Of a stretch of 32,000 bases of DNA, positions 6,574-31,116 are shown one piece after another. Position 1 is the stretch's first letter; every line of letters begins with the position of its first letter. The notes under the pieces were generated by a model. The model ran no database searches. It saw only the letters and a list, made by a program, of their open reading frames with translations, and had not been told where the DNA came from. This DNA is from Crocosphaera subtropica ATCC 51142 (GTDB lineage Bacteria > Cyanobacteriota > Cyanobacteriia > Cyanobacteriales > Microcystaceae), in contig NC_010546.1 of NCBI RefSeq assembly GCF_000017845.1, forward strand, positions 2,730,001-2,762,000, written 5' to 3'. Made by a program: the position numbers and the translations under genes.

Positions 6574-7941
6574 ATGTTACGAATGCGAACCCTTCAAGAA
6601 GGCTCAGTAGGACTCTTTGCCCTGTTTGGGTTAATCATATTTGGGGGCTTAGTGGTTTGGCTACGGGGGGGTATTATCGGCCAAAAAACCTATCAATTTT
6701 TCGCTGAATTTAAAGATGTCAGTGGTTTACAAATCGGGGCCCCGGTTCGTTATCGAGGGGTTGCTGTGGGTAAAATTTTGGGACTACAACCCAGTAGTAA
6801 CGGGGTGACTGTTGCCGTTGAAATTTCTTCTGCTCAATTACGCATTCCCAAGGGTTCTAAAGTCCAGATTAATCGTTATGGTTTAATTGGGGAAGCGTCA
6901 GTGGATATTACCCCTTCACGGGAGCTATCTGAGGATGCCTTAAGCATTGATCCCACCAGTGAAGACTGTGAGCAAGCCGGGAAAATTCTCTGTAATAACG
7001 ATCAAGTGATGGGGCAAACAGGATCACAATTGGTTGAAGCCTTAACCCGTTTGAGTAATGCCTATAGCGATCCTGAATTTGTCGGTAATATGAACGCAGC
7101 CCTACAAAATGTCGCTAAAGCAGGGGGCAAAGTAGCTACCTTGTCTGAAGAAGTAACCAAATTATCAAAGGCGACACGGGGGGAAATTGGAGGCGTTAGT
7201 GATGTTCTCCGCAGTGCCGATCAAGCTGCTCAAGATGCGTCTCAATTAATGCGTAACGTGAATACAGTGGTGGCAGAAAATCGTACCGATCTCAATCGAA
7301 CCGTACGCAGTGCTGCTAATTTAATGAGTAATTTAGATGGATTAGTCTCAGAAAATAGAGGCAACATTGTTAATACCTTAGACAGCATCGAACGAACTAG
7401 CGATCAAGTGCGTTTATTAGCGTTGAACTTTAACACCACTGTAGATCGAGTTAATGAAGGGATCGATGAAATTGATATGGCAAAATTAGCCAATGATCTC
7501 GAAACGTTGATGAGCAATGCAGCCCAAACCTCAGAAAATTTACAAAATTTATCTCAATCTCTCAATGATCCTGAAGTGCTTCTCACGATTCAGAAAACCT
7601 TAGATTCTGCCCGTGTTACCTTTGAAAATACCCAAAAAATCACCTCTGATGTGGAAGAATTAACCGGCGATCCCACTTTTAGAAATAATATTCGTAAATT
7701 AATCGATGGACTGAGTAATTTAGTGGCTTATACTGAACAATTAGAACAACAAATTTATGTCGGACAAGTGATTGAATCTGTCACTGAACAAGTTGAATAT
7801 AGCTTGCTTTCACAACAGAATTTAAAATCATTTTATTCTGAGAAAAAAGACCCCTCTAGATTACCAAAACGACTTTCAACTATTAAGAAAACAAGGGAAA
7901 AAGTAACCTCGAATCAGGTTGAAAATAATGAAAACAAATAA
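6574..7941 (+). CDS. MlaD/MCE-domain protein (TGD2-like) with a long helical C-terminal extension
   Basis: An N-terminal TM helix (VGLFALFGLIIFGGLVVWL) is followed by the MCE block FAEFKDVSGLQIGAPVRYRGVAVGKI. About 300 aa of N/Q/S/L-rich helical sequence follows. A GAGG Shine-Dalgarno sits 9 nt upstream of the ATG. Confidence 0.75.
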   Translation: MLRMRTLQEGSVGLFALFGLIIFGGLVVWLRGGIIGQKTYQFFAEFKDVSGLQIGAPVRYRGVAVGKILGLQPSSNGVTVAVEISSAQLRIPKGSKVQINRYGLIGEASVDITPSRELSEDALSIDPTSEDCEQAGKILCNNDQVMGQTGSQLVEALTRLSNAYSDPEFVGNMNAALQNVAKAGGKVATLSEEVTKLSKATRGEIGGVSDVLRSADQAAQDASQLMRNVNTVVAENRTDLNRTVRSAANLMSNLDGLVSENRGNIVNTLDSIERTSDQVRLLALNFNTTVDRVNEGIDEIDMAKLANDLETLMSNAAQTSENLQNLSQSLNDPEVLLTIQKTLDSARVTFENTQKITSDVEELTGDPTFRNNIRKLIDGLSNLVAYTEQLEQQIYVGQVIESVTEQVEYSLLSQQNLKSFYSEKKDPSRLPKRLSTIKKTREKVTSNQVENNENK

Positions 7942-8291: not shown

Positions 8292-8550
8292 CTTTAGTAT
8301 GTCAATGCTTTTGCGTGTAAACTTTAACTTATACATGAAGTTATACATTACGATAACACTACTATTTTGATTATGGCTTTAAATGAGAATAGAGACATTT
8401 GACTCATTTGAATTCATTAAATCGACTCTAGTATTAATTAAAAGTTTCCTAACTATAGATAAATTCTTCCTGATGTTAAGTTTATGTTAACAATTGAAAA
8501 CAAGGCATCTGAAAGACCATTTATGTTCATCATTAGACGATTCCAAAAAA

Positions 8551-11500
8551 ATGAATGCTAATAACAATACCCTCAATAGGCAAGAACCTTGCCAGAAAAT
8601 ATTACACACCCTCGAAACAATTTCCCCAACTAAAGACTTAGGGTTGGACTTAGCTAAAACCTTTGAAATTGTAGAATGTGAATTTGGAGATGAAATTACT
8701 ACATTTCCTAGGAGGGCTGAAAAGAATGGACACAATCAAGACATGGATCAAGATGTTTATGTTGTCTGTCAAGGTCAAGTTAGGTTAGTCAGTTTTCAGA
8801 CCAATAAACAGAGAAATGTCTCAATTCAGTTACTCCAAGAAGGGGACATTTTTGGGGGAGATGGGTTAGGAAATCGAATCAGTTGGGCTTATGGTGCGAT
8901 CGCAGTGGGTTCAGACCCTGTGCAGGTGGCGAAAATTTCATCCCCTCAACTACAACCTTATTTAGAAAAGTTACCAGAACTTGAAACCCATCTGGCTACC
9001 ATTGCCCAACAAAGACAAACCTTAATCTTTTTTAAGCTCTTTACGAACCTGGGAACCCTACCCGGTCGAAGACTCCAACACCTATTACCTTATATCCAAA
9101 ATCAACGAATTCGAGCCGGAGAAAATCTGGCATCCTGGGGGAAAAAACAACCCAGTCGTTTGTGGTTGTGTCAAGGAGTCATTAAAAATGTCGACCTAGA
9201 AAGAGGTCATTCGTTTGGTTATCCTGAAACCATTCCTTCGGACTGGGTGGCTCAAACCGATCTCGAAGTCTATCAAATTCTCCAACAGGACTGGGATGCT
9301 GTTAGGGCGATCGCCCCTAGCTTACCCTCATCACCAGATAGTTCCTCCCATCTCTCCCCAACCGTTTCCCCAAAAAGTCATCCACCCCTTCCCCCGCCTA
9401 GTGCCTCTGTTCACCCTGAGCCACTTCCTCTCCCTGTCCCCCCTAACCCAGAATCATCAACGGTTGAATTTCCCAAACCCTTAAAAAAGCCCAGAGGATT
9501 ATGGCAAAATTATCCCTTTATTGAACAACAGAGTGCGGCCGACTGCGGTGCTACTTGTTTAGCCATGATTAGTCAATATTGGGGAAAAAGGCTCAATCTC
9601 AACTTTTTGCGAGACTTAGCAGGGGTTGGGCGTTCCGGGGCCTCTTTAAAAAACTTGGCCAAGGCCGCTGAAAAATTAGGTTATCAAGCCAGGCCTGTAC
9701 GAGCCAGTTTAAACCGCTTAATGGAAGAAAAAAATCCTTGGATCGCCCACTGGCAGGGGGATCACTATGTGGTGGTCTATCGTGTCAAAGGCGATCGCCT
9801 ACTCATTGCTGATCCGGCCCAGGGTAAACGGTTCATTCCTCGCCAAGAATTTATCACGGGATGGACAGGCTACGGTTTATTACTCGATCCCACCGAACAG
9901 TTAAATGAAGTCCCTACAGAAAAACGTTCTTTGGGGAGATTTTTGAAATTACTGTTACCCTATCGATCCCTAGGCATACAAATTATTTTCGCCTCTTTGC
10001 TTATTCAAATTTTTGGCTTAGTCACCCCTCTATTTACCCAAATTATCTTAGATAAGGTGGTGGTTAACAAAAGTCTGACCACCTTAAATGTGTTTGCCCT
10101 GGGGGTTCTTTTATTCGGGATCTGGAGTGTTTTATTATCGGGGGTTCGACAGTACCTACTGAGTTATTTGTCTAACCGTCTCGATCTGACCATGATTGGC
10201 GGTTTTATTAATCATGCCTTGTTGCTTCCCCTGAAATTTTTTGAATCTCGTCATGTGGGGGACATTATTACACGGGTTAATGAAAATCAGAAAATCCAGC
10301 GATTTTTGCTGAATCAGGTGGTGTTAGCCTGGTTAGATTTTTTAATGGGATTTGTCTATTTAGGGTTGATGCTCTATTACAACTGGCAACTTACTCTATT
10401 AATTGTGGCTTTAATCCCCCCAATTATGTTATTAACCCTGGGAGCAACCCCTTTATTGCGAAAAGTGTCAAGGGATGTCTTTAATCGCTCTGCTGAACAA
10501 AATTCGGCTTTGGTGGAAACCATTACAGGAGTGGCGACGGTCAAAGCTACCGCAACGGAAAAAGAACTACGTTGGCGTTGGGAAGAACGGTTAACCAATT
10601 ATCTGAATGCTCGATTTCGCAGCCAAAAACTGGGGATTAATCTACAAGCCGGCAGTGGTTTGATTAACTCCCTTGGCAGTACTGCACTCCTGTGGTATGG
10701 AGCAACCTTGGTGATCCAAGATCAACTCACCATTGGTCAATTTGTGGCCTTTAATATGATGATTGGTAAAGTGATCAACCCCGTTCTTTCTTTGGCTAAT
10801 CTTTGGGATGAACTGCAAGAGGTGTTAATTTCTGTCGAACGACTCAATGATATTTTTGACAGTCAACCCGAAGAAATACCCGGTCAACCCAGATTGCAGT
10901 TACCCCCCTTGAAAGGCCATATCAAATTTGATCATGTCACCTTTCGGTATAACGCTGACGAGGAACGCAACACCTTAGAGAATATTTCCTTTGAGGTGCA
11001 ACCTGGAGACACCATTGCCATTGTCGGACGCAGTGGTTCAGGGAAAACCACCTTAGTGAAGTTGCTTCAAGGACTGTATCCCCCAGACTCAGGAACCATT
11101 TACATCGATGAACACGATCTCAACCATATCTCTCCCCAATCCTTACGGAGTCAACTGGGGGTGGTTCCTCAAGAATGTTTCTTATTTTCTGGGACAATTT
11201 TCGAGAATATTACCCTATACCGTCCTGAATTTACCCTAGAACAAGTGGTGAAAGCAGCCCAACTCGCAGAAGCCCATGCTTTCATCCAGAGTATGCCGTT
11301 GGGATATAACACCAAAGTGGGAGAACGGGGAATGAATCTATCAGGGGGACAACGACAGCGCATTGCCATCGCCCGTGCGTTATTAGGCAAGCCACCGATT
11401 CTGATTTTAGATGAAGCCACCAGTTCCCTTGATACGGAGTCGGAACGCAGATTTCAAGCAAACCTTAGTCGTCTTTCCCACGACCGCACCACTTTTATTA

Positions 11501-11646
11501 TTGCTCATCGTCTCTCCACGGTTCGCAACGCTGATTGCATCCTTGTCTTAGATAAGGGAATTTTAGTTGAACAGGGAACCCACGAAGTCTTAATAGCAGA
11601 GCCAGGCATTTATGCTCATTTAGCGGAGCAACAACTCAATCTTTAA
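8551..11646 (+). CDS. HetC-like peptidase-containing ABC exporter: tandem cyclic-nucleotide-binding-like domains, Pro-rich linker, C39 peptidase, ABC transmembrane domain and ATPase
   Basis: The cNMP-like block is VYVVCQGQVRLVS...LQEGDIFGG. The C39 catalytic Cys block is QQSAADCGATCLAMISQYWG, and the His block is WQGDHYVVVY. There are six TM segments. Walker A is GRSGSGKTT, the signature is LSGGQRQRIAIARAL and Walker B is ILILDEATSSLD. The ORF also opens at a TTG at 8494; I chose the first ATG at 8551, and the true start is uncertain. Confidence 0.93.
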   Translation: MNANNNTLNRQEPCQKILHTLETISPTKDLGLDLAKTFEIVECEFGDEITTFPRRAEKNGHNQDMDQDVYVVCQGQVRLVSFQTNKQRNVSIQLLQEGDIFGGDGLGNRISWAYGAIAVGSDPVQVAKISSPQLQPYLEKLPELETHLATIAQQRQTLIFFKLFTNLGTLPGRRLQHLLPYIQNQRIRAGENLASWGKKQPSRLWLCQGVIKNVDLERGHSFGYPETIPSDWVAQTDLEVYQILQQDWDAVRAIAPSLPSSPDSSSHLSPTVSPKSHPPLPPPSASVHPEPLPLPVPPNPESSTVEFPKPLKKPRGLWQNYPFIEQQSAADCGATCLAMISQYWGKRLNLNFLRDLAGVGRSGASLKNLAKAAEKLGYQARPVRASLNRLMEEKNPWIAHWQGDHYVVVYRVKGDRLLIADPAQGKRFIPRQEFITGWTGYGLLLDPTEQLNEVPTEKRSLGRFLKLLLPYRSLGIQIIFASLLIQIFGLVTPLFTQIILDKVVVNKSLTTLNVFALGVLLFGIWSVLLSGVRQYLLSYLSNRLDLTMIGGFINHALLLPLKFFESRHVGDIITRVNENQKIQRFLLNQVVLAWLDFLMGFVYLGLMLYYNWQLTLLIVALIPPIMLLTLGATPLLRKVSRDVFNRSAEQNSALVETITGVATVKATATEKELRWRWEERLTNYLNARFRSQKLGINLQAGSGLINSLGSTALLWYGATLVIQDQLTIGQFVAFNMMIGKVINPVLSLANLWDELQEVLISVERLNDIFDSQPEEIPGQPRLQLPPLKGHIKFDHVTFRYNADEERNTLENISFEVQPGDTIAIVGRSGSGKTTLVKLLQGLYPPDSGTIYIDEHDLNHISPQSLRSQLGVVPQECFLFSGTIFENITLYRPEFTLEQVVKAAQLAEAHAFIQSMPLGYNTKVGERGMNLSGGQRQRIAIARALLGKPPILILDEATSSLDTESERRFQANLSRLSHDRTTFIIAHRLSTVRNADCILVLDKGILVEQGTHEVLIAEPGIYAHLAEQQLNL

Positions 11647-11887: not shown

Positions 11888-11994
11888 AAAAAAATTGATA
11901 ACTGTTTACTGTTGTTTGTTCCCTATCTTAATTAATAACTAATGATTAGCAAATTTTCTCTTATTTTCTCTTTATTCCACATCATCAATTGATC

Positions 11995-12831
11995 ATGAAA
12001 ACCGTTCCTATTATTCGCCGAACATTGCTAACTTTAATGACAGTTAGTTCAATGAGTTTGGCACTACCTAGTAAAGCAGCTAACTTTTTTACAGTATCTG
12101 AAATTAGCTTAGAACTCACAAATTTTAGTCATCTTCCTCATGATATTGCTGCTTTTGTAACCCAAGACGTGACAACTATTGCTAATATTGGTTTTGTTGC
12201 TGCACAAGTTGATGTAGATGCAATTTTTCAAGTGGAAAATAATGAAGCGATCGCTCAAGCTTATTCATCAATTGGTTTAATTGGATCAGGTACAGATTAT
12301 CTAGGCTCAGCCAATGTTTCTACTAATTTATTCGGTAGTTTTATGATTCCTGTAGGGGAATCTTTGCGCTTTGATATTAATTCTTACTTATCTCTAGAAA
12401 ATTTTACTGAGGATCTATTTTCAGGACATAGTACATCAGGAACTATTAGTTTTTTATTTCAAGATGTTTTAAATCAAACCGTCTATGAGGTTTTTCGTTT
12501 AACTGGTATTTTAAATACTAATAATAATGAGGAATTAGGTCGAGATATCCTCAAATTTGTTCGTGGTGATGGACTAAAAATTTCCAATTATTATGAACAA
12601 ATTGTATTAGAAGGCAATAACGAATCCTTAGTTCTTGCCTTTAGTGGCGTATTTGAACAAAAGTTTGAACAAGGGGCAATCATCAATTTAGTCGCTGTCA
12701 GTCAAACTTGTAATTATGATTCTAATGAGGTTGGTGGTTGTGTCACAATTCCTGAACCGTCAAATAGAACCAGTTTATTATTAGGTTTACTCTGCTTAAT
12801 TTCTGTCGGGTTACGCTCAAGAATTATGTAA
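11995..12831 (+). CDS. PEP-CTERM sorting-domain secreted protein
   Basis: N-terminal signal peptide MKTVPIIRRTLLTLMTVSSMSLALPSKA. The C-terminus is PEPSNRTSLLLGLLCLISVGLRSRIM, that is PEP, a hydrophobic helix and a basic tail. The ORF track opens at a TTG at 11989; the ATG at 11995 is more likely. Confidence 0.75.
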   Translation: MKTVPIIRRTLLTLMTVSSMSLALPSKAANFFTVSEISLELTNFSHLPHDIAAFVTQDVTTIANIGFVAAQVDVDAIFQVENNEAIAQAYSSIGLIGSGTDYLGSANVSTNLFGSFMIPVGESLRFDINSYLSLENFTEDLFSGHSTSGTISFLFQDVLNQTVYEVFRLTGILNTNNNEELGRDILKFVRGDGLKISNYYEQIVLEGNNESLVLAFSGVFEQKFEQGAIINLVAVSQTCNYDSNEVGGCVTIPEPSNRTSLLLGLLCLISVGLRSRIM

Positions 12832-13527
12832 AAGATAGTTAAGTTCAATGGCTAGCCATTCCTGAAACATTCGATCCATAATTTCTTCATAAAGTATTGG
12901 GGTCAGTTCCGCCTCAATAAATTCTTCAACCATTAAAATATGATAGCCTTGATCTGTTTTTAACGGAGTAATCACTTTTTTGGGCTGTGCTGCAAAAATA
13001 TTAGCAGAAAAATCAGGTTTAAGATTGAAGCGATATAGTTTTCCTTCATGGCCACAATGATAACGACGTTGTTCATCGATATCATAAATATGTGCTGCTT
13101 GATAAAAACTCATTTCTTCTTCTTCTATTTGATAAAAAATTTCCCAAGCCAACTTTTCATACGGGACAATAATTTGATAAAGCAAAACTTGTTCAAAATC
13201 TACTTTATTCTGAGCAAAATATTTTTCTACTTCTTGAGAAAATAATGCTTCGGCTAGTTTTTGGCGGAGTATACTATTATAAATACCTGCTTCCCAATCA
13301 TCAGAATTAATCATTTGCTCGTCTAACCAAGCATAGGTGTCAGCAGCTTTTTCTAGTGATCTCTGAGTGCGTTGACTATCAGCTTCTATTTGAATTTCCT
13401 CTGCTGTCACTGTCAAATTCATTTTTTCAGCAGCTTGATTAATAATTCTTTGATATTGAATTTGGCAATAAATTTCTTTAAATTTCAGTGTTGTTTTGAG
13501 GAAATTGATGATTGTATCGACTTCCAT
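12817..13527 (-). CDS. Parvulin-type peptidyl-prolyl cis-trans isomerase (PpiC/SurA-like), with no signal peptide
   Basis: The C-terminal rotamase block FAAQPKKVITPLKTDQGYHILMVEEF follows a SurA-N-like helical region. A GAGG Shine-Dalgarno sits upstream of the ATG at 13527. The 3' end overlaps the PEP-CTERM gene by 15 nt. Confidence 0.7.
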   Translation of the reverse strand: MEVDTIINFLKTTLKFKEIYCQIQYQRIINQAAEKMNLTVTAEEIQIEADSQRTQRSLEKAADTYAWLDEQMINSDDWEAGIYNSILRQKLAEALFSQEVEKYFAQNKVDFEQVLLYQIIVPYEKLAWEIFYQIEEEEMSFYQAAHIYDIDEQRRYHCGHEGKLYRFNLKPDFSANIFAAQPKKVITPLKTDQGYHILMVEEFIEAELTPILYEEIMDRMFQEWLAIELNYLLHNS

Positions 13528-13711: not shown

Positions 13712-13963
13712 TTAGCGAAATAGTCTTGCAGAAACGTCTATAGTCGTCACAGGTCGCCCGCCAATGCCCCAGGAGAAACCACCAATAAAGGCCAAACCAA
13801 GTTTAACAGGGCTGCCCTCTAAGTCTCCGAGGTCGTCGCCAACTTGGGTAAAGGTTTCAACTGCCCAGCGAGACTTAAAGGAATAAAAACCCCCTTCAAC
13901 GGTTTGGGCATTGGGCAAACTCTCGTCATAAAAGTTTAAATCAGTAATGGTTAACTGGCTCAT
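13712..13963 (-). CDS. Double-glycine-leader peptide a (83 aa): leader MSQLTITDLNFYDESLPNAQTVEGG, 58-aa core
   Basis: ATG preceded by AGGAAG. The leader matches the I-x-D-L-x-x-x-x-E...GG pattern shared with four neighbouring genes and sits next to a C39 ABC exporter. Confidence 0.7.
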   Translation of the reverse strand: MSQLTITDLNFYDESLPNAQTVEGGFYSFKSRWAVETFTQVGDDLGDLEGSPVKLGLAFIGGFSWGIGGRPVTTIDVSARLFR

Positions 13964-13993
13964 GATTGTCTTCCTATTTTGCGGTATAATGGC

Positions 13994-14257
13994 TTAGAGT
14001 GAGAAAGTCCAGGTCAAGAAATTAAACCCTGTAAAGGTATTTGTCCCGATTGCTTCGCCAGCACCATTAACCAAGGCATCTATTCTTCCTGGGTTATCAA
14101 AATTACCATTGACTGTGGCTGACGAGTCGGGAAAAATAGGTCTTAAGAGACTAAGGCGATTAATACGACTGGTTATCGCTCCCTTAATTTGCTCAGGATC
14201 TTGTTGAGCAGTCTGGTGATTAATGAGTTTGAGATGGTCTAGATCAGAAATATTCAT
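13994..14257 (-). CDS. Double-glycine-type leader peptide b (87 aa): leader MNISDLDHLKLINHQTAQQDPEQIKGA (a GA variant), 60-aa core
   Basis: I chose an internal ATG of the 157-aa track ORF. From that ATG the product begins MNISDLDHL, nearly identical to the start of peptide c. The upstream 70 codons overlap peptide c out of frame. Confidence 0.6.
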   Translation of the reverse strand: MNISDLDHLKLINHQTAQQDPEQIKGAITSRINRLSLLRPIFPDSSATVNGNFDNPGRIDALVNGAGEAIGTNTFTGFNFLTWTFSL

Positions 14258-14354
14258 GGGTAGTACCCTTTTGTCTGTTATTTTTCTTGCATAAAAGAAA
14301 ATTTTTGGGAGAGAAAAATTCTTACTTTTTCTCTTAATTGGGTCATCATATTGC

Positions 14355-14615
14355 TTAGAATATTCTTCCAATAGCAACTTGAAACAGTGAGCTACTATAG
14401 GCAACAATATGTTGATCAGGTTGACTAATAGTGACAGGTTCTTCAATAATTTCGGAGGCTGAACCAATAGAACCTAAGTTAAAGGTTCTGATATCTCTTC
14501 CTAAAGCGGCTCTACCAGCAAAGAGAGTAAAAGCTTCGCTAAAGGACATAAAACCGCCTTTTACTTCATCAGATTGATGGATAGTTTCTAGATGTTCTAA
14601 ATCAGAAATATTCAT
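14355..14615 (-). CDS. Double-glycine-leader peptide c (86 aa): leader MNISDLEHLETIHQSDEVKGG, 65-aa core
   Basis: ATG with GGAGA upstream. It has the canonical GG leader and its own promoter-like motif at 14665-14694. Confidence 0.75.
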   Translation of the reverse strand: MNISDLEHLETIHQSDEVKGGFMSFSEAFTLFAGRAALGRDIRTFNLGSIGSASEIIEEPVTISQPDQHIVAYSSSLFQVAIGRIF

Positions 14616-14664
14616 TTTTTGGAATCTCCAATGCTAATGCTTTGATTAACCAAATTTTAGGTCA

Positions 14665-14694
14665 ATTTTATCTCCAATACCTGCCAGTTTGGCA
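14665..14694 (-). promoter_or_regulatory. Putative promoter/operator of the peptide c-b-a unit: palindrome TGCCAAACTGGCA, 11 nt, TAAAAT
   Basis: The minus strand reads TGCCAAACTGGCA-ggtattggaga-TAAAAT. The palindrome is at 14682-14694 and the -10-like box at 14665-14670. The same architecture occurs at 15094-15124 and 15688-15718. Confidence 0.55.
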
Positions 14695-14738
14695 ATCATT
14701 ATAAAATCAATAAATTGATATTTTGATCAGCCATAAAA

Positions 14739-14767
14739 ATCAGGAAGCTATTAGTAAGCTCCCTGAT
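14739..14767 (-). terminator. Rho-independent terminator after peptide d
   Basis: Stem atcaggaagc / gctccctgat (10 bp, 1 mismatch), flanked by an A-run and a T-run. It lies between the peptide d stop (14800) and the peptide c promoter motif. Confidence 0.65.
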
Positions 14768-14799
14768 TTTTTTAATTAAACTGATGAAATATCCTCTGG

Positions 14800-15030
14800 T
14801 TAGCTGAGGGAGCTAGAGTAGGCATCAATACGAGCATAGGCACGGCTACCGAGAGGACCAGCAACAGCACCAGTGGTGTCGGTATCAGTTTCAAAATCGA
14901 TTTCAGTGTCAGATTCTACACCAGTGGCAATAGAACCACCGCCAACGCGAGAAAAAGCACGACCGATACCACCACAGATTTCTTCAGCAGTAGAAACAAC
15001 TTCTAAGTATTTTAGATCTTGGATATTCAT
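14800..15030 (-). CDS. Double-glycine-leader peptide d (76 aa): leader MNIQDLKYLEVVSTAEEICGG, acidic 55-aa core
   Basis: The internal ATG at 15030 is preceded by AAGGAG at good spacing. The track ORF starts 11 codons earlier with no Shine-Dalgarno. The leader pattern is conserved. Confidence 0.75.
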   Translation of the reverse strand: MNIQDLKYLEVVSTAEEICGGIGRAFSRVGGGSIATGVESDTEIDFETDTDTTGAVAGPLGSRAYARIDAYSSSLS

Positions 15031-15093
15031 GAGGTTTAGCTCCTTAGTTCTTGTTAAAACCAACCGTATTGGTTGTTATTAATATAGTAAGTA

Positions 15094-15124
15094 TTTTTAT
15101 CAAGTTTGACTTGCCATTTTGGCA
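15094..15124 (-). promoter_or_regulatory. Putative promoter/operator of peptide d: TGCCAAAATGGCA, 12 nt, TAAAAA
   Basis: Palindrome at 15112-15124 and -10-like box at 15094-15099, read on the minus strand. Confidence 0.55.
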
Positions 15125-15202
15125 CAAAGTTTAAACAAATTTCATACTAAAACTTGACATATAAAAGTAAGAATTATTGTCATTTATTTTTTATAAAAAA
15201 TA

Positions 15203-15237
15203 GATCCTCTTATCCAATTAAATTAGGAAAGAGGATC
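15203..15237 (-). terminator. Rho-independent terminator after peptide e
   Basis: A 9-bp perfect stem, gatcctctt (15203-15211) / aagaggatc (15229-15237). On the minus strand it is followed by TATTTTTT. Confidence 0.7.
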
Positions 15238-15315
15238 ACAATTTCATCATCAATAGATAGAATTTATCTACTCAGTAATTTACTCTTATTGGTACAGTTG
15301 AATTTCGAGTTTTAA

Positions 15316-15582
15316 CTAATCTCCAACCACTACGCTGATACTTCTTCGTCCACCATCTGATTTCTTTTCTTCTCCTCCTACTGAAATAATAGAATTAATA
15401 CTAATTCTAATACTAGCAACTCCGTCACGTTCAATGGTTTCTACTACAAACGGATCATTACTTGACCCTGAATTATCAGGATTAGTTCTTGGATTAATTC
15501 GACTTTCTGTTCTGCCAATCCCACCAAAAACAACTGAGGGATCAGTGACAGTTTCACGATAACTCAAATCAGAAATCAACAT
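15316..15582 (-). CDS. Double-glycine-leader peptide e (88 aa): leader MLISDLSYRETVTDPSVVFGG, 67-aa core
   Basis: ATG preceded by AAGGAG. The leader pattern is conserved. The core starts IGRTESRI, comparable to IGRAFSRV in peptide d. Confidence 0.72.
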   Translation of the reverse strand: MLISDLSYRETVTDPSVVFGGIGRTESRINPRTNPDNSGSSNDPFVVETIERDGVASIRISINSIISVGGEEKKSDGGRRSISVVVGD

Positions 15583-15763: not shown

Positions 15764-16153
15764 TTAAAATTGCCACAGTTGTAAGCGAAACCCTCCATGA
15801 ATTTTTGCAGTGTTATTTGTCAATTCTTCTAAGTAATTGATATCTTTAATTTTTTCCCTAGATGTTTGAGTTGTTGTCTGTTGACATGAATCTTTTGATA
15901 ATTGCTGTTTTTGGAAATTCCTCTGCTCATTTTTTTCTTTTTTATGAGACTGTTTTAAACAATTATCTTTAATTAAACGATTATAAGTCCGATAGGGAAT
16001 ATAATGCAGTGGATTATAACCTGCCGTTTGTAAAATTAAAACACAAGCCCAGGAATATTTACCTGCTAAGATCGCATCAACAATTTTTTCAAATTGTTCT
16101 TCGGTCATGGTTCGTGATTGTTTGCTGTTTGCGCTATAACCAGAGTTAGACAT
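15764..16153 (-). CDS. HetP-family protein carrying a C-terminal double-glycine leader-like segment plus an 8-residue tail
   Basis: The N-terminal block [47 protein letters not shown] matches my recollection of the conserved HetP domain. The C-terminus is [29 protein letters not shown]. The ATG at 16153 has GAGGAG upstream; the track start at 16159 is a TTG. Confidence 0.7.
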
Positions 16154-16316
16154 AGTCAATAAAACTCCTCAAAATTGCTTAATTTAAAAACACAACAAGG
16201 CTTAGGAACAACAGGAGAACAGAAGATTCCGAGACTAGGTAACCATCCTTCGGGAAGGCAAAAGGTAGGGAACTAGGAGCAGAAGAAGACTATTTAACCT
16301 GAGTTCGGGGTTAGAG

Positions 16317-16455: not shown

Positions 16456-18189
16456 CTAAAGCTTTATGCCATCCTTTTGTATTTGCTTAATGGGGTCAAG
16501 CAACACATCAATAATGCGACGGCGACGAATGATAATGTCTGCTGTTACGGTTTGTCCCGGTTTAAAGGCAATCCTTTCTTGATTTTTTAGAATATGATCC
16601 CGTTCTAGCTCGATCTCAACTCGATAAATTTCACCTAGTTTTTCGTCGGATTCCGCATCGGCAGAAATGGCGGTTACTTCACCCGTAATGACCCCATAAT
16701 CCTGATAAGGGTAAGCATCTAGCTTAACTTGTGTCGGCATTCCTTTGTTGACAAAACCAGCTTCTTCGTTGGGGAGAACCGCAGACACCACTAACGGCAC
16801 ATTATGGGGGGCAATCTCAGCAACGGTTTGTCCTGCTTCAATGACTTCGCCGGTGTTTTTGAGATCGAGGGATAAAATGGTGCCACTGATGGGAGCTTTA
16901 AGATACTTATATTGCAGCTTGCTTTGGGCAGCAATTAACAAATTTTTGTTCTCTGTTATTTTTCCTTGCAGTTGGGTCATTTCCACTTCAAGTTGCTGAA
17001 TTTTTTGCATGGCTTCTATTTGCTTCCGTTGCGCTTGCCCTTGCTTCTGAGTCAATTCAGCTTGAGCCTGTTGAACGGTTTGTTGGGCTAAGAACAGTTC
17101 TCCTTGATTTTCGGTCATTTGCGATCGCAGATCCCGTATCCCTTGATTCCCTTGAAAGATTTGTTCGTTGGCTTGGGTCACTTCTTGTAGTTGACTACTG
17201 ATAATCTGTTGTTCTGTTTGTCTCAGGGTTTGTTCGGCTTCGTAGAGATATTCTTGAGAAATGGCTCCTTCTTCTTGTAGGGGTTTAAGTCGGTTGATCC
17301 GCTCTTGATGGGCAACTTTCTCGGCCTGCAATTGATTAAGTCGTTGTTGGGCTAGGGTGGCTAGGGGTTGTAACTGTTTTTGTCGTAATTGATAGGCTGT
17401 AGCCTCGTTTTGTTGTTGAGCTAATAATTGACGGACTGTGGCAATCTTTTCTTTAGTATGGGCGATGACCGCTTGTTGCGCTTGTAGTTCGGCCGAGGCA
17501 ATGGCTGCATCTGTTTTGGCTTCTAATTCAATCCGTTCTTGTAGGGTTTGTTTTTGGCTTAACTCGGTTTCATAGGCTCGGAGCATTTCTTGAAGTCGAT
17601 TAACTTCTTTTTGGGCTAGTTCTGTATCGAATTCCACTAATAATTGACCGGCTTGTACCTCTTGTCCCTCTTCGACGGCAATGTCGGTCACTTTCCCCAA
17701 TTCTACTGGTTGAATTTTATAGGTTTCTCCCTCTGGCACCAATTTTCCTTGGGCTTTCCCTACTTCTTCAAGGGTTCCAAACCAGGCCCAGGCCCCGAAT
17801 GCAAGACAAAATGCCATTCCTCCTAAGATGAACTTTTGGGGTAAGGTGGCAGGGGGTTGGTCTAAGAGGGTTTGGACAGAAGACGACCAGAGATTGACTG
17901 GTTCTTCTAACTGGGGTGAACGATAGGCAGGGGTTGGGTTAAAGGTGGTTTGAGGAAGCTCTATTGCGTTGCTACTGACCCCACCATAAATATGGTTAGA
18001 GTTCTCAGGGGTCATCAAATTGGCCTGGTGTTTCTGACTAACTAATGAAGCGTCTTTGTCTTGAGTAAAATCCTGGACAAATTGCTTGTTCGTTCGTTCA
18101 AAGTGGGTTGACATAGTAAATCTCTTATGGTTTAGATTGATACTTTTATTCAAGGAAAGTTCACAACATTTATTAGGCTTAAAGTTCAT
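16456..18189 (-). CDS. HlyD-family membrane-fusion (periplasmic adaptor) protein of a type I / peptide export system
   Basis: A single TM helix (FILGGMAFCLAFGAWAWFG), a lipoyl-like block VEEGQEVQAGQLLVEFD, about 250 aa of Q/E/L-rich coiled coil, and a C-terminal beta-barrel block GMPTQVKLDAYPYQDYGVITGEVTAIS. An alternative ATG lies at 18114. Confidence 0.88.
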   Translation of the reverse strand: MNFKPNKCCELSLNKSINLNHKRFTMSTHFERTNKQFVQDFTQDKDASLVSQKHQANLMTPENSNHIYGGVSSNAIELPQTTFNPTPAYRSPQLEEPVNLWSSSVQTLLDQPPATLPQKFILGGMAFCLAFGAWAWFGTLEEVGKAQGKLVPEGETYKIQPVELGKVTDIAVEEGQEVQAGQLLVEFDTELAQKEVNRLQEMLRAYETELSQKQTLQERIELEAKTDAAIASAELQAQQAVIAHTKEKIATVRQLLAQQQNEATAYQLRQKQLQPLATLAQQRLNQLQAEKVAHQERINRLKPLQEEGAISQEYLYEAEQTLRQTEQQIISSQLQEVTQANEQIFQGNQGIRDLRSQMTENQGELFLAQQTVQQAQAELTQKQGQAQRKQIEAMQKIQQLEVEMTQLQGKITENKNLLIAAQSKLQYKYLKAPISGTILSLDLKNTGEVIEAGQTVAEIAPHNVPLVVSAVLPNEEAGFVNKGMPTQVKLDAYPYQDYGVITGEVTAISADAESDEKLGEIYRVEIELERDHILKNQERIAFKPGQTVTADIIIRRRRIIDVLLDPIKQIQKDGIKL

Positions 18190-18952: not shown

Positions 18953-19993
18953 ATGACTAACAATCAGGTTTTTTCGATTGCTAATAATTCTGATCTCAAA
19001 AATTTTAACTATCAAGAATTAAATCCACAAATGCGCCATGAGGTTCAAGAGTTAACCCTTGATATCAAAAATCGACTCCGTCGCTGCGCTCAAGATATCT
19101 ATATTATTGGTGATAATCTATGTAAAATCAAAGAACAATTACAACATGGACAATTTCGGACGTGGTTAAAAGCCGAATTTGATTGGAGTGTATCTGCTGC
19201 TAATAAATTTATGCAGGTTAGTCAACAATTTCAACTCAATGACTTAGAAACAGTGGAAATTTCTCCCTCGGCTCTCTATATTTTAGCAGCCCCTTCGACA
19301 CCCCAAGAAGTTCGCACTCAGGCTTTAGATACAGCGAAACAAGGTCAAACCATTACCTTTTCTTTTGCCAAACAACTCCTCAAACAAAATAAAGAGAAAC
19401 AATCAGATCCAAATATTAATAACCAACCAAGAAATAATCTTATAACCCAGGAATATCAATATGATCCAAAAATTAACAACCAGTTATTCCCTGATCAATC
19501 TAATGTCTTAGACTTGGTAAACACAAAGACAAGTGAGCTAAATTTATCGGTTCAAATTTATAGTTCTTCTGAATTTAATAATTATTTAGAGGAAGCATGG
19601 CAAAAAATGTTTGGTGCAGAAGAGTATTTATCTTTGCTAGTATGTCAAATTAATTCAGAAGATAGCAAACAGTCAGAAACCTTAATGTTTCAAGTGTTTC
19701 AACAACTCAGTTATGGATTAGCTTTTAGTTTAAAGCGAGCGGGGGATTTTGTGGGACAATATGATGAGAATCAATGTATTGCTGTTTTATCCAATACTGA
19801 TCCCGAAGGCGTTCAATGTGTAGTAGATCGGTTTATGAAGTGGTTTAGTGCTTGGCAAAAAACCCTATATAAGTCTGATCGATTCAAAACCCTAAATATT
19901 CATATCGGAACCGCTAGTATGATTCCTAAGCAGGGATTTACCCCTCACAGTCTCATTGAAACGGCGTTAAAGAATAAGGAATTAATGAAGTAG
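18953..19993 (+). CDS. DUF3102-like N-terminal domain fused to a degenerate GGDEF-like domain
   Basis: The N-terminus, IIGDNLCKIKEQLQHGQFRTWLKAEFDWSVSAANKFMQV, resembles DUF3102. The C-terminus follows the GGDEF fold pattern (LSLLVCQIN..., RAGDFVGQYDENQCIAVLSNTDPEG, LNIHIGTAS), but the GGDEF signature is replaced by YDENQ. Confidence 0.5.
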   Translation: MTNNQVFSIANNSDLKNFNYQELNPQMRHEVQELTLDIKNRLRRCAQDIYIIGDNLCKIKEQLQHGQFRTWLKAEFDWSVSAANKFMQVSQQFQLNDLETVEISPSALYILAAPSTPQEVRTQALDTAKQGQTITFSFAKQLLKQNKEKQSDPNINNQPRNNLITQEYQYDPKINNQLFPDQSNVLDLVNTKTSELNLSVQIYSSSEFNNYLEEAWQKMFGAEEYLSLLVCQINSEDSKQSETLMFQVFQQLSYGLAFSLKRAGDFVGQYDENQCIAVLSNTDPEGVQCVVDRFMKWFSAWQKTLYKSDRFKTLNIHIGTASMIPKQGFTPHSLIETALKNKELMK

Positions 19994-29983: not shown

Positions 29984-30556
29984 TTACACTTCGTAAGAAA
30001 GTTCTCGCAACATTGAAACCGTAATTGGTAATTCTTGTTTGAGTAAAATTTCTAAATATTCGTCTATAGATTTAGGCGGTTTTTTTAATCTTTTTCGACA
30101 AGTTTCTGCTGCTTTTGCAACTTTAAAAGGTTTTAAATCAATTAAATTTGAAATAAACTTATCGGGATGTTCTACAAAAATTTCATAATTATCAAGAACA
30201 TGAGATGGAAAATCTTTAAGATTCATAGTAACAATAACATCAACTTGACCTTTTATAGCTGCTGCTAATACATGACGATCATCAGAATCTGGTAAATTAA
30301 TTGAGGAAATTAATTCCTCATAACCTGTTATTAAACAATCACGAACATGACTATTCATTAAATTCTTAATTTTTATCAACTGTTCAAGGGTTAAATCAGG
30401 TCTATTTTTTAGAATATTACGAATCCATTCATCATGAATTGTATCAGTCCAACGCGCTCTAAAAAGGTCAGTTAATGCTAACTGCATCAATAAATCTCTT
30501 AACGGTGCAGGATACAAAACACAAGCATCATAAAGGGCAGTAAAATTAGAGGACAT
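29984..30556 (-). CDS. PIN-domain ribonuclease-type toxin
   Basis: Acidic PIN blocks LYDACVLY, DSDDRHVLAAAI and VIVTMNLKDF. The start codon directly abuts the stop codon of the upstream HTH gene. Confidence 0.68.
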   Translation of the reverse strand: MSSNFTALYDACVLYPAPLRDLLMQLALTDLFRARWTDTIHDEWIRNILKNRPDLTLEQLIKIKNLMNSHVRDCLITGYEELISSINLPDSDDRHVLAAAIKGQVDVIVTMNLKDFPSHVLDNYEIFVEHPDKFISNLIDLKPFKVAKAAETCRKRLKKPPKSIDEYLEILLKQELPITVSMLRELSYEV

Positions 30557-31027
30557 TTACTCATAACCCATGTTTAATTCTTGTGCTTGTTCTACTAGTT
30601 TATCTAATACTTCACTTCGCTTACGATCAATATTATCTTTGTAGTTCATAATATCTTCAAAACGAATACGACGATGTTTTCCCACTTTAGTAAAAGGAAT
30701 TTCTCCAGACTCCAGTAATTTGATTACATAAGGACGAGACACATTCAAAATATCAGCAGCTTCTTGAGTGGTTAACTCAGCATGAATAGGAATTAGAGTT
30801 ATTGCATTTCCTTGTGCCATTTGAGTTAAGATATCAATCAATAAATGAAAAGCACTAGCAGGTATTTCAACAACTTGTTCAGTGCTATCATTTTTTAACA
30901 GTTTGATCGTTTGAGATTGATGATTGGATTGAAGATGAGACGCTAAAATGCGACTACTTTCCTGAGCAGTTTTTATCTCTGACTCAGACGGAATGAATGG
31001 TTTGTTAAGTGTTTTTGAGACGGTCAT
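30557..31027 (-). CDS. Excisionase/MerR-type helix-turn-helix antitoxin partner of the PIN protein
   Basis: LTTQEAADILNVSRPYVIKLLESGEIPFTKVGKHRRIRFEDIMNY is a typical HTH_17/excisionase-family block. The ATG at 31027 has GAGG upstream; the track ORF extends to 31093. Confidence 0.68.
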   Translation of the reverse strand: MTVSKTLNKPFIPSESEIKTAQESSRILASHLQSNHQSQTIKLLKNDSTEQVVEIPASAFHLLIDILTQMAQGNAITLIPIHAELTTQEAADILNVSRPYVIKLLESGEIPFTKVGKHRRIRFEDIMNYKDNIDRKRSEVLDKLVEQAQELNMGYE

Positions 31028-31116
31028 TGGAATTGCCTCATGCTTAAACCTCAGTGATTTAAGCATAACTGGCAAACGAAATAAACGCAACAAGCGAAAT
31101 AAACGAAATTAGACCC

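What the first reader, a model, noticed from the sequence alone, without database searches (positions are those of the whole stretch)
15764..16153. HetP-family protein ends in a double-glycine leader followed by only eight residues (FRLQLWQF): a possible carrier for a secreted octapeptide
Seen in sequence: after the conserved HetP-like N-terminal domain and a low-complexity Q/K/T linker, the protein ends ...[22 protein letters not shown]|FRLQLWQF-stop. The 20 residues before GG align with the leaders of the five neighbouring peptides (NISDLEHLETIHQSDEVKGG, NIQDLKYLEVVSTAEEICGG, and so on). The residue after GG is F, as in peptides a and c. Inference: the HetC-like C39 domain could cleave here and release an aromatic, hydrophobic octapeptide, making the HetP-like protein both an intracellular domain and a pro-peptide. 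Short diffusible peptides control cyanobacterial patterning (the PatS/HetN RGSGR motif), and HetC has been linked to their handling, so a HetP-borne peptide would be a new link. Alternative: this is a fossil fusion of a hetP-like gene with a truncated GG-peptide gene.
Basis: partly seen in the sequence, partly recalled or inferred. Interest (0 to 1): 0.8.

Follow-up and report, generated by a model that had tools for sequence, protein, structure and literature searches.

The report
HetP protein with double-glycine tail
A small cyanobacterial regulator (HetP family) ends in a cleavage-and-export tag that matches the transporter encoded beside it; this tag was already published in 2011 for this very gene, it has never been tested, and it may identify the long-sought substrate of the HetC transporter.

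Summary
The window is Crocosphaera subtropica (Cyanothece) ATCC 51142, and the ORF at 15764-16153(-) is cce_2677, a 129-aa HetP-family protein ending [21 protein letters not shown]|FRLQLWQF.

The C-terminal segment is homologous to the double-glycine leaders of the neighbouring small peptides (profile-profile P = 1.6e-8). The adjacent HetC-like ABC exporter has an intact C39 Gln/Cys/His/Asp set.

The finding is not new. Wang et al. 2011 (PLoS One 6:e22384) described the motif KIxDLxYLEx10GG in "HetP-type precursors" and showed cce_2677 in their alignment. Micallef et al. 2015 reused the class.

My additions:
- 186 of 195 homologues carry the module, including Anabaena HetP itself.
- 51 of 55 module-bearing genes with full flanks lie within 10 kb of a HetC-like exporter.
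- A Trp 5-6 residues after GG is about 84% conserved and is absent from the neighbouring peptides.
- Tails vary from 3 to 40 residues.
- Some intact clusters carry HetP without the module.

C39 recognition and cleavage is therefore likely. A specific octapeptide signal is weakly supported, and a fossil fusion is rejected. Cleavage has never been tested, and HetC's substrate is still reported as unknown (2024).

The parts
15764..16153 (-). Full HetP-family gene (cce_2677), 129 aa from the ATG; an alternative TTG start at 16159 gives 131 aa; the stop codon is at 15764-15766.
15962..16135 (-). HetP domain (aa 7-64). It is a confident all-helical fold and is the part shared with short HetP paralogues.
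   Evidence: NCBIfam NF037966 E 2.8e-34. AF2 helices 18-77 with pLDDT about 88-95. Mean top-residue frequency 0.87 over aa 17-66. No structural relative in the PDB.
15857..15955 (-). Low-complexity Q/K/T/S linker (aa 67-99), predicted disordered and not conserved.
   Evidence: AF2 gives pLDDT below 50 for residues 77-104. Top-residue frequency 0.26. Aromatic content 1.5% across homologues.
15791..15853 (-). Double-glycine leader-type module [21 protein letters not shown] (aa 101-121). The predicted C39 cleavage site follows Gly121.
   Evidence: hhalign to neighbouring-peptide leaders P 1.6e-8. Conservation: L105 94%, Y107 90%, E109 90%, G120 97%, G121 92%. Matches the published motif KIxDLxYLEx10GG.
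15767..15790 (-). Eight-residue tail FRLQLWQF (aa 122-129), containing the family-conserved Trp (W127).
   Evidence: The W127 column is 84% Trp at 90% occupancy. Short tails are 25% aromatic against 1.5% in the linker. Trp at P4'-P7' is found in 0 of 48 neighbouring peptides.
8494..11646 (+). HetC-like peptidase-containing ABC exporter (1050 aa): N-terminal cNMP-binding-type region, C39 peptidase (aa 340-468, about 9511-9897), transmembrane domain and ATPase.
   Evidence: Pfam and NCBIfam hits. Gln346/Cys351/His424/Asp440 are intact and the best PDB match is LahT150 (6mpz), E 2.9e-21.
16456..18189 (-). HlyD-family membrane fusion protein directly upstream of the HetP gene on the same strand.
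   Evidence: TIGR01843 242.8 bits. The synteny is conserved in most related loci.
13712..15582 (-). Five small double-glycine peptide genes: cce_2676 15316-15582, cce_2675 14800-15030, cce_2674 14355-14615, unannotated 'CDS3' 13994-14257 and cce_2673 13712-13963.
   Evidence: All are listed as group II precursors by Wang et al. 2011.
12817..13527 (-). PpiC-type rotamase-like protein that closes the cluster. It is a conserved partner of HetP genes whether or not a transporter is present.
   Evidence: Pfam Rotamase E 6e-9 and TIGR04500-like. Conserved in related loci.

Best explanation
cce_2677 belongs to the already described 'HetP-type double-glycine precursor' class, and it has two parts.

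Part 1 is the N-terminal ~65-residue helical HetP domain. It is an intracellular regulatory module. In Anabaena, HetP is a commitment factor, described in 2026 as a non-specific DNA-binding protein that helps sigma-HetZ reach its promoters.

Part 2 follows a disordered linker. It is a C-terminal module derived from the same leader type as the co-encoded small peptides: I-x-D-L-x-Y-L-E-x10-G-G-x4-5-W.

The most likely mechanism is as follows. The catalytically intact C39 domain of the neighbouring HetC-like exporter binds this module and cuts after Gly121. The 121-residue HetP fragment stays in the cytoplasm. The short Trp-containing tail (here FRLQLWQF) enters, and probably passes through, the exporter together with the HlyD partner.

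I infer that the main purpose is to couple the state or location of HetP to transporter activity, not to deliver a specific octapeptide signal.

Shown: homology of the module to real leaders, its conservation, the synteny, and the intact protease residues. Inferred: binding, cleavage, export and any regulatory consequence.
For: - Module homology to the neighbouring leaders: hhalign P 1.6e-8, in register at GG.
- The module is present in 186 of 195 unique homologues, as GG 174, GS 11 and GA 1, the dipeptides C39 peptidases accept.
- G120 is 97% and G121 92% conserved, against a 26% top-residue frequency in the linker.
- 74 of 80 genome loci have a HetC-like exporter within 10 kb, usually in the order hetC-hlyD-hetP-peptides-ppiC.
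- 51 of 55 module-bearing genes with at least 8 kb on both sides have the exporter.
- Six module-less short paralogues sampled elsewhere have no exporter within 10 kb. The association is Fisher p = 2e-4, with non-independent sampling.
- The C39 Gln/Cys/His/Asp set is intact in the window and in 132 related C39 domains.
- Nostoc HetC has demonstrated cysteine-protease activity, and its catalytic residues are needed for differentiation (PMC10986499).
- A cyanobacterial exporter of the same architecture (PteB) secretes GG-motif proteins, with cleavage at the motif (PMC4997328).
- The leader and tail are predicted disordered when alone, as expected for a leader that folds on binding.
- For coupling rather than a signal: tails vary from 3 to 40 aa, and HetP without the module occurs in intact clusters.
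Against: - No cleavage has ever been shown for any HetP protein.
- The module is C-terminal, after about 100 residues. Classical leaders are N-terminal and 15-30 residues long.
- An 8-residue cargo (3-7 residues in some homologues) is shorter than any PCAT cargo I know of (own knowledge).
- HetP-GFP C-terminal fusions in Anabaena had similar localisation in a HetC peptidase-deletion background (PMC4133259). This does not fit simple dependence on the peptidase.
- A Nostocales paralogue clade keeps the helix but has lost GG (RNS, RS, RDS). The helix may therefore also work without cleavage.
- The same-locus versus cross-locus leader similarity test gave no signal (p = 0.50).
Confidence: 0.55

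Rival explanations
1. Docking without processing. The leader-like module tethers HetP to the C39 domain, or to another part of the HetC-like exporter. HetP would then act as a regulator, pseudo-substrate or plug, or would be localised at the transporter. The tail is not released as a product.
For: - HetP-GFP and HetC-GFP both concentrate at heterocyst poles (PMC4133259).
- Short HetP paralogues sit beside stand-alone homologues of the HetC N-terminal cNMP-binding region and of the PpiC-like protein. This suggests that the HetP domain works with those parts of the system.
- The helix is kept where GG has decayed.
Against: - GG/GS/GA is kept in 186 of 195 homologues, with 97% and 92% conservation of the two glycines. 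Pure docking does not need this.
- The catalytic residues are universally intact.
- HetP-GFP localisation was unchanged when the peptidase stretch was deleted.
Confidence: 0.18
2. The point of the arrangement is to make and secrete a specific bioactive or signalling octapeptide, FRLQLWQF, with HetP acting as its carrier.
For: - A tail is always present (minimum 3 residues). It is strongly aromatic and carries an 84%-conserved Trp that the neighbouring peptides lack.
- The 2024 HetC paper proposes this kind of model for an unknown substrate.
Against: - Tail length and sequence are not conserved beyond the Trp (3-40 aa).
- The closest relatives (54-59% identity) have different tails.
- Intact clusters exist in which HetP lacks the module.
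- No receptor candidate was identified.
- The tail has no RGSGR motif.
Confidence: 0.12
3. The module acts independently of the transporter, for example as an interaction helix between HetP paralogues or with another partner, or the hydrophobic tail acts as a degron or membrane anchor. The resemblance to GG leaders would only reflect its origin by gene fusion.
For: - The helix persists in paralogues with decayed GG, and in loci where hetC is reduced to fragments (L131, L142, L156).
- HetP-GFP was reported in membrane fractions.
Against: - There is strong co-location with intact PCAT genes.
- The exact GG spacing is conserved.
Confidence: 0.1
4. Fossil fusion with a truncated GG-peptide gene, with no present function.
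For: - The module aligns from the peptides' initiator Met position onward (M-x-I-S-D-L against K-I-K-D-L), and hetP lies directly upstream of the peptide genes. An ancient fusion is a plausible origin.
- Occasional decay is seen (L090, with in-frame stops).
Against: The module is conserved across Chroococcales, Oscillatoriales, Pleurocapsales and Nostocales in about 95% of sampled full-length homologues. It carries HetP-specific features (basic P3, Trp at P5'/P6') that are maintained.
Confidence: 0.03

Closest known systems
HetP-type double-glycine 'bacteriocin precursors' (Wang, Fewer & Sivonen 2011, PLoS One 6:e22384; Micallef et al. 2015, BMC Genomics 16:669)
   Same: This is the same gene. 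cce_2677 appears in their Fig. S1A and Table S3 as a group II precursor, with the motif KIxDLxYLEx10GG.
   Different: Those papers treat HetP as a bacteriocin precursor and suggest that an M16 peptidase might do the cleavage. They do not report the conserved Trp after GG, the family-wide synteny statistics, the module-less variants, or the link to the open question of the HetC substrate.
Anabaena/Nostoc PCC 7120 HetC-HetP (heterocyst commitment)
   Same: The transporter has the same domain architecture (cNMP-binding + C39 + ABC). The HetP domain is the same, and so is the module: Anabaena-type HetP reads KIKDLAYLEVVGKQTTEIHGG|NLDQWL... (L042). hetC and hetP are adjacent.
   Different: The window organism is unicellular and forms no heterocysts. 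Here hlyD, five GG peptides and ppiC are still in the cluster, and the tail is 8 residues rather than 40. In L042, the Anabaena-type locus examined, no hlyD lies between hetC and hetP.
NHLP / Nif11 long-leader precursors (own knowledge: Haft et al. 2010), processed by C39 transporters such as the LahT family
   Same: A whole protein-sized N-terminal region precedes a GG site and a short C-terminal core. The closest solved C39 domain to the window's is LahT150.
   Different: There is no sequence relation to nitrile hydratase or Nif11. The HetP domain has an independent intracellular function and also exists alone. No lanthionine, cyclodehydratase or radical-SAM enzymes are in the window.
EbfG1-4 / PteB of Synechococcus elongatus (Parnasa et al. 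2016)
   Same: This is the only cyanobacterial GG-motif/PCAT system with experimental evidence of cleavage at the motif and of secretion dependent on the peptidase Cys. It is the best model for the five neighbouring peptides.
   Different: The EbfG proteins have ordinary N-terminal leaders and protein-sized cargo. No HetP fusion is involved.
Secretion-coupled regulators such as FlgM (own knowledge)
   Same: This is a conceptual analogy only: a regulator whose state depends on engagement with an export machine.
   Different: The machinery is different. Here the regulator domain would stay inside and only a tail would leave. The analogy is entirely hypothetical.

Membership tests
HetP family (NCBIfam NF037966 / Pfam PF28069) | N-terminal HetP domain scoring above the curated cutoff | tested here: met
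   116.6 bits against a cutoff of 45, aa 7-64. PF28069 is precomputed on the identical protein.
HetP-type GG precursor (Wang et al. 2011) | C-terminal motif KIxDLxYLEx10GG | tested here: met
   KIKDINYLE + 10 residues + GG (L to I at one position). The gene is listed by the authors.
HetP-type GG precursor (Wang et al. 2011) | Located in or next to a C39-ABC transporter ('group II') cluster | tested here: met
   PCAT at 8494-11646, HlyD at 16456-18189, five GG peptides at 13712-15582.
Double-glycine (PCAT) substrates | Gly-Gly/Ala/Ser at positions -2/-1, preceded by a conserved leader recognised by C39 | tested here: met
   GG at 120-121. Profile homology to bona fide neighbouring leaders, P 1.6e-8.
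Double-glycine (PCAT) substrates | Leader is N-terminal and 15-30 residues long, with the cargo making up the bulk of the precursor | tested here: not met
   The module starts at residue 101 of 129 and the cargo is 8 residues.
Double-glycine (PCAT) substrates | Cognate transporter with catalytic Cys/His in its C39 domain | tested here: met
   Gln346, Cys351, His424 and Asp440 align with LahT150/PCAT1.
Double-glycine (PCAT) substrates | Experimentally cleaved after GG and exported | not testable with these tools
   No published test was found. The 2024 HetC paper used only an artificial substrate.
NHLP / Nif11 long-leader precursors | Leader domain homologous to nitrile hydratase alpha or Nif11 | tested here: not met
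   Only HetP_family is hit in NCBIfam, and only a sub-threshold RTP hit in Pfam.
NHLP / Nif11 long-leader precursors | Co-encoded core-modifying enzymes (LanM, cyclodehydratase, radical SAM) | tested here: not met
   No such domains were found in the 26 window ORFs scanned. Only a PpiC-like protein is present.
PatS/HetN/PatX morphogen peptides | RG(S/T)GR pentapeptide | tested here: not met
   The protein sequence (printed in full) contains no RG(S/T)GR; the tail is FRLQLWQF.

The most novel reading that the evidence does not exclude
HetP-family proteins are the cognate physiological substrates of HetC-type peptidase exporters throughout cyanobacteria. C39 cleavage at the conserved GG frees or activates the cytoplasmic HetP regulator and expels a Trp-containing tail. 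Gene regulation, and in heterocyst formers commitment itself, would then be gated by transporter activity and by its ppGpp/cNMP-binding domain. The unicellular Crocosphaera cluster would be the ancestral form of the hetC-hetP developmental module.
Probability: 0.3. Interest if true: 0.8.

Novelty: already known. Interest (0 to 1): 0.4.

Why it matters
HetC was identified decades ago (own knowledge) and was shown in 2024 to need its peptidase and ATPase residues for heterocyst differentiation. Its substrate is still unknown, and that paper states that no double-glycine leader gene lies near hetC.

The HetP module contradicts that statement. It was noted in 2011 in the natural-product literature, and I show here that it is nearly universal and also present in Anabaena-type HetP. 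A cleavage assay of HetP by the HetC N-terminal domain is an obvious and cheap experiment.

If the assay is positive, it would link a secretion machine directly to a commitment regulator. It would also show that this link predates heterocysts.

For the scan itself, the lesson is that this item is a rediscovery of a published prediction, not a new feature.

Tried and rejected
1. Single-sequence test. The window HetP scores only E = 2.5 against the 21-position leader HMM, which is not significant alone. I replaced it with the profile-profile comparison.
2. Co-variation of HetP's module with leaders of the same locus against other loci, over 23 loci. No excess was found (p = 0.50). My anchoring misregistered four of the window's five leaders, which weakens the test.
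3. Association of the tail Trp with presence of the transporter. It was not significant (Fisher p = 0.30), although three loci with hetC remnants have lost the Trp.
4. AF2 model. Only the N-domain is confident, and the leader and tail have no secondary structure. Foldseek against the PDB gave no hit with E <= 0.001.
5. The promoter/terminator scan of 12.5-18.6 kb was uninformative.
6. Literature. Videau et al. 2016 (PMC5111671) and Zhang et al. 2018 (PMC5892110) are not held, so I could not check what is known about the HetP C-terminus. A search for the cce_267x locus tags found nothing.
7. Reaching short paralogues with the metagenome scan returned mostly long forms. The contrast group therefore came from eight exact-protein look-ups. 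It is small and was not sampled randomly.
8. Frameshift or assembly artefact was rejected, because the architecture is shared by homologues.

Full report
**What is there.** The window corresponds to Crocosphaera subtropica (formerly Cyanothece) ATCC 51142. Matching the coordinates in Wang et al.'s Table S3 to window positions gives an offset of 2,730,000 in CP000806. The ORF at 15764-16153 on the minus strand is cce_2677. It is 129 aa from the ATG, or 131 aa from an upstream TTG at 16159. It ends ...[30 protein letters not shown]-stop. Residues 7-64 match the NCBIfam HetP_family model at 116.6 bits against a cutoff of 45.

The surrounding genes form one cluster:
- A 1050-aa exporter on the plus strand (8494-11646), with a cNMP-binding-type N-terminus, a C39 peptidase domain, an ABC membrane domain and an ATPase. 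This is the HetC architecture.
- On the minus strand, in order: an HlyD-family adaptor (16456-18189), the HetP gene, five small ORFs with N-terminal double-glycine leaders (13712-15582), and a PpiC-type rotamase-like gene (12817-13527).

**Is it more than chance?** A pattern for the shared motif occurs four times in the six-frame translation of the window. All four lie in this cluster, and none occurred in 300 shuffles.

I collected 48 leaders of small peptides next to HetP genes in related loci, excluding HetP itself, and built a profile from them. This profile aligns to a profile of 81 HetP proteins over 19 columns, in register and ending at GG. The consensus IsDLxyLE...I.GG aligns with IkDLxYLE...IrGG, with a one-residue insertion in HetP. 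hhalign gives probability 95.5% and P 1.6e-8.

The window protein alone scores only E = 2.5 against this very short model. The statistical weight therefore rests on the family.

**Conservation.**
- Among 195 unique homologues (120 database proteins and 80 genome loci), 186 carry the module. The dipeptide is GG in 174, GS in 11 and GA in 1.
- In an 89-sequence alignment the mean top-residue frequency is 0.87 in the HetP domain, 0.26 in the linker, 0.53 in the module and 0.29 in the tail.
- Within the module, L105, Y107, E109, G120 and G121 are 90-97% conserved.
- Within the tail one column stands out. The Trp aligned to W127 is 84% conserved at 90% occupancy.
- None of the 48 neighbouring peptides has a Trp at P4'-P7'.
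- Tails are always present but run from 3 to 40 residues (median 16).
- Short tails are 25% aromatic, against 1.5% for the linker.
- Heterocyst-forming lineages have tails of about 36-40 residues. The Anabaena PCC 7120-type HetP reads KIKDLAYLEVVGKQTTEIHGG|NLDQWLTEQ... (L042).

The conserved unit is therefore I-x-D-L-x-Y-L-E-x10-G-G-x4-5-W. The particular octapeptide of this strain is not conserved. Its nearest relatives, at 54-59% identity, end in YQIQQYFDLIML, FQLHRWHFPKTV, FRIQWSFDWK and similar sequences.

**Context.**
- In 74 of 80 genome loci a HetC-like exporter lies within 10 kb, most often in the order hetC-hlyD-hetP-(GG peptides)-ppiC.
- After adding 80 metagenome loci and removing duplicates, 51 of 55 module-bearing genes with at least 8 kb on both sides have the exporter.
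- The C39 catalytic Gln/Cys/His/Asp are intact in the window protein. Its closest solved relative is the LahT150 double-glycine protease, E 2.9e-21. Cys and His are intact in 132 related C39 domains.

**Variants that inform the mechanism.** A search of 1.8 billion cluster representatives with the N-domain found 307 relatives. Of the best 147, roughly 60% have the module (my hand correction of the regex count) and roughly 37% are short, HetP-domain-only proteins. I looked at the context of eight module-less forms.
- Six have no exporter or HlyD within 10 kb.
- In four of these six (L161, L162, L164, L165), the short HetP sits beside a clear homologue of the window's PpiC-like protein (36-46% identity, E 1e-46 to 1e-65). 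It also sits beside a stand-alone homologue of the N-terminal cNMP-binding region of the HetC-like exporter (26-35% identity, E 1e-13 to 1e-33).
- Two (L167, L168) sit in otherwise complete exporter-HlyD-HetP-small ORFs-PpiC clusters. Several metagenome loci do the same (L089, L093, L115, L147).
- One locus (L090) shows the module decaying through in-frame stops.
- A Nostocales paralogue clade of 129-130 aa keeps KIKDLAYLEVV but has RNS, RS or RDS in place of GG.
- In four loci hetC survives only as deletion fragments. In three of them (L131, L142, L156) the HetP tail has Arg in place of the conserved Trp, and L156 also has SG for GG. The fourth (L150) keeps both GG and Trp.

The association between module and exporter is significant in a crude test (Fisher p = 2e-4). 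The sampling is small and not phylogenetically independent. The Trp-versus-exporter association is not significant (p = 0.30).

**Structure.** AlphaFold2 with an 89-sequence alignment gives a confident helical N-domain (helices 18-77, pLDDT about 88-95). The linker is disordered (pLDDT below 50 for residues 77-104). The leader and tail have no secondary structure (pLDDT about 48-59). This fits a leader that orders only on binding. Foldseek finds no PDB relative of the HetP domain.

**What is already known.**
- Wang, Fewer and Sivonen (2011) reported that HetP-like proteins lie next to cyanobacterial bacteriocin-type clusters, mainly their group II. They described 'a putative cleavage motif KIXDLXYLEX10GG'. 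Their Fig. S1A alignment includes cce_2677 with the cleavage site marked. Table S3 lists it together with cce_2673-2676.
- Micallef et al. (2015) used 'HetP-type precursors' as an established class.
- On the developmental side, Corrales-Guerrero et al. (2014) showed linked functions and polar co-localisation of HetC and HetP.
- Rachedi et al. (2024) showed that HetC's N-terminal part is a cysteine protease, using an artificial substrate only. They found that C347/H420 and the ATPase glutamate are essential and that the cNMP domain binds ppGpp. They state that no gene with a double-glycine leader is near hetC and that the substrate is unknown. They propose a model in which an N-terminal cleavage product stays inside and acts on transcription.
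- A 2026 PNAS paper calls HetP a non-specific DNA-binding protein that promotes sigma-HetZ binding.
- I found no paper that tests HetP cleavage.

**Interpretation.** The most likely reading (about 0.55) is that the module is a working C39 recognition and cleavage site. Cleavage after Gly121 would separate a cytoplasmic HetP fragment from a short Trp-containing tail that enters the exporter.

I think coupling of HetP to the transporter is the more probable purpose, rather than production of a defined secreted octapeptide, for three reasons:
- The tail is not conserved beyond one Trp.
- The HetP domain has an independent life with PpiC-like and cNMP-binding partners.
- Complete clusters tolerate loss of the module.

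Docking without cleavage (about 0.18) and transporter-independent roles of the helix or tail (about 0.10) are live rivals. A non-functional fossil is very unlikely (about 0.03).

**Verdict.** The finding is already published for this exact gene, so its novelty is nil as a discovery. The open question it bears on, the substrate of HetC, is real and directly testable, which is why I do not score it near zero.

Noticed in passing
L161 10001-13344; L162 10001-12819; L164 10001-13332; L165 10001-13151: Short, module-less HetP paralogues lie far from any exporter. They sit beside a homologue of the window's PpiC-like protein and a stand-alone homologue of the HetC N-terminal cNMP-binding region, often with DUF218, DUF1816 and polysaccharide-export genes. 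A conserved trio (HetP domain + PpiC-like + cNMP-binding module) therefore exists with or without the transporter.
   Followed up: partly
L131 8393-8942; L142 7089-7632; L156 7802-8301; L150 6753-8393: hetC is reduced to deletion fragments upstream of hetP. In three of these four loci the HetP tail has Arg in place of the conserved Trp (SLDQRL), and L156 also has SG in place of GG. This suggests relaxed constraint once the exporter is lost, but Trp loss also occurs beside intact exporters (for example L130, L043, L080).
   Followed up: partly
L024, L054, L061, L023 (HetP ORF near 10001-10390 or 7141-7530): A Nostocales paralogue clade of 129-130 aa keeps KIKDLAYLEVV but has RNS, RS, RDS or RGS instead of GG, followed by a 10-residue tail (K/Q)EQWL(T/A)K(Q/K)VQ. 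L023, L054 and L061 lie near a second, more divergent PCAT-HlyD pair (PpiC-like hit in L023 and L061 only). L024 has only a PpiC-like hit within 10 kb.
   Followed up: partly
L089 about 6900-7460 and L115 about 10270-10900: Directly downstream of a module-less HetP in a PCAT-HlyD cluster lies an ORF rich in GGxGxD-type repeats (GNDTVFAAGGDDF...GGSGSDKIFG...). By eye it resembles an RTX-type calcium-binding type I secretion substrate.
   Followed up: no
L090 1808-2200: The HetP gene is truncated by in-frame stop codons inside a still recognisable module (KINDLSYLEKVEQKQS*LGSRARVF). This is an example of the module decaying.
   Followed up: no
window 11989-12831 (+): This 280-aa ORF has no family hit. 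Its C-terminus (PEPSNRTSLLLGLLCLISVGLRSRIM) looks like a PEP-CTERM sorting signal by eye, but no NCBIfam model matched at E <= 0.01. Weak homologues occupy the same position in several related clusters (L001, L008, L015).
   Followed up: partly
window 14355-15030 (-): Two of the five GG peptides share an ...AYSSSL motif at or near the C-terminus (14 residues from the end in one). Peptides in related loci are Ser/Tyr-rich (for example L036). Their function is unknown. The EbfG biofilm proteins of Synechococcus elongatus are the only characterised cyanobacterial analogues.
   Followed up: no
L030, L033, L035, L038, L041, L049, L050, L052 about 9250-9910: In Fischerella, Westiellopsis and related loci only a fragment of hlyD (matching window HlyD aa ~363-573 at most) remains between hetC and hetP. 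In L042, the Anabaena-type locus, there is none. The adaptor gene appears to have decayed in the heterocystous lineage.
   Followed up: no
window 15962-16135 (-): The HetP domain gives a confident AF2 helical model but has no Foldseek match in the PDB (best E about 3). Pfam gives only a sub-threshold hit to Replication terminator protein (18.2 bits against a cutoff of 26.7).
   Followed up: partly
Wang et al. 2011 Table S3 (read): The coordinates given for cce_2677 (2188113-2188508) do not fit its neighbours (2743712-2745582). From the window offset the gene should be at about 2745764-2746159, so this is probably a table error.
   Followed up: yes
window 18953-19993 (+) and 29984-31093 (-): A DUF3102 + GGDEF protein lies just beyond the HlyD gene. 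A PIN-domain and HTH_17 gene pair, which looks like a toxin-antitoxin system, lies near the end of the window.
   Followed up: no
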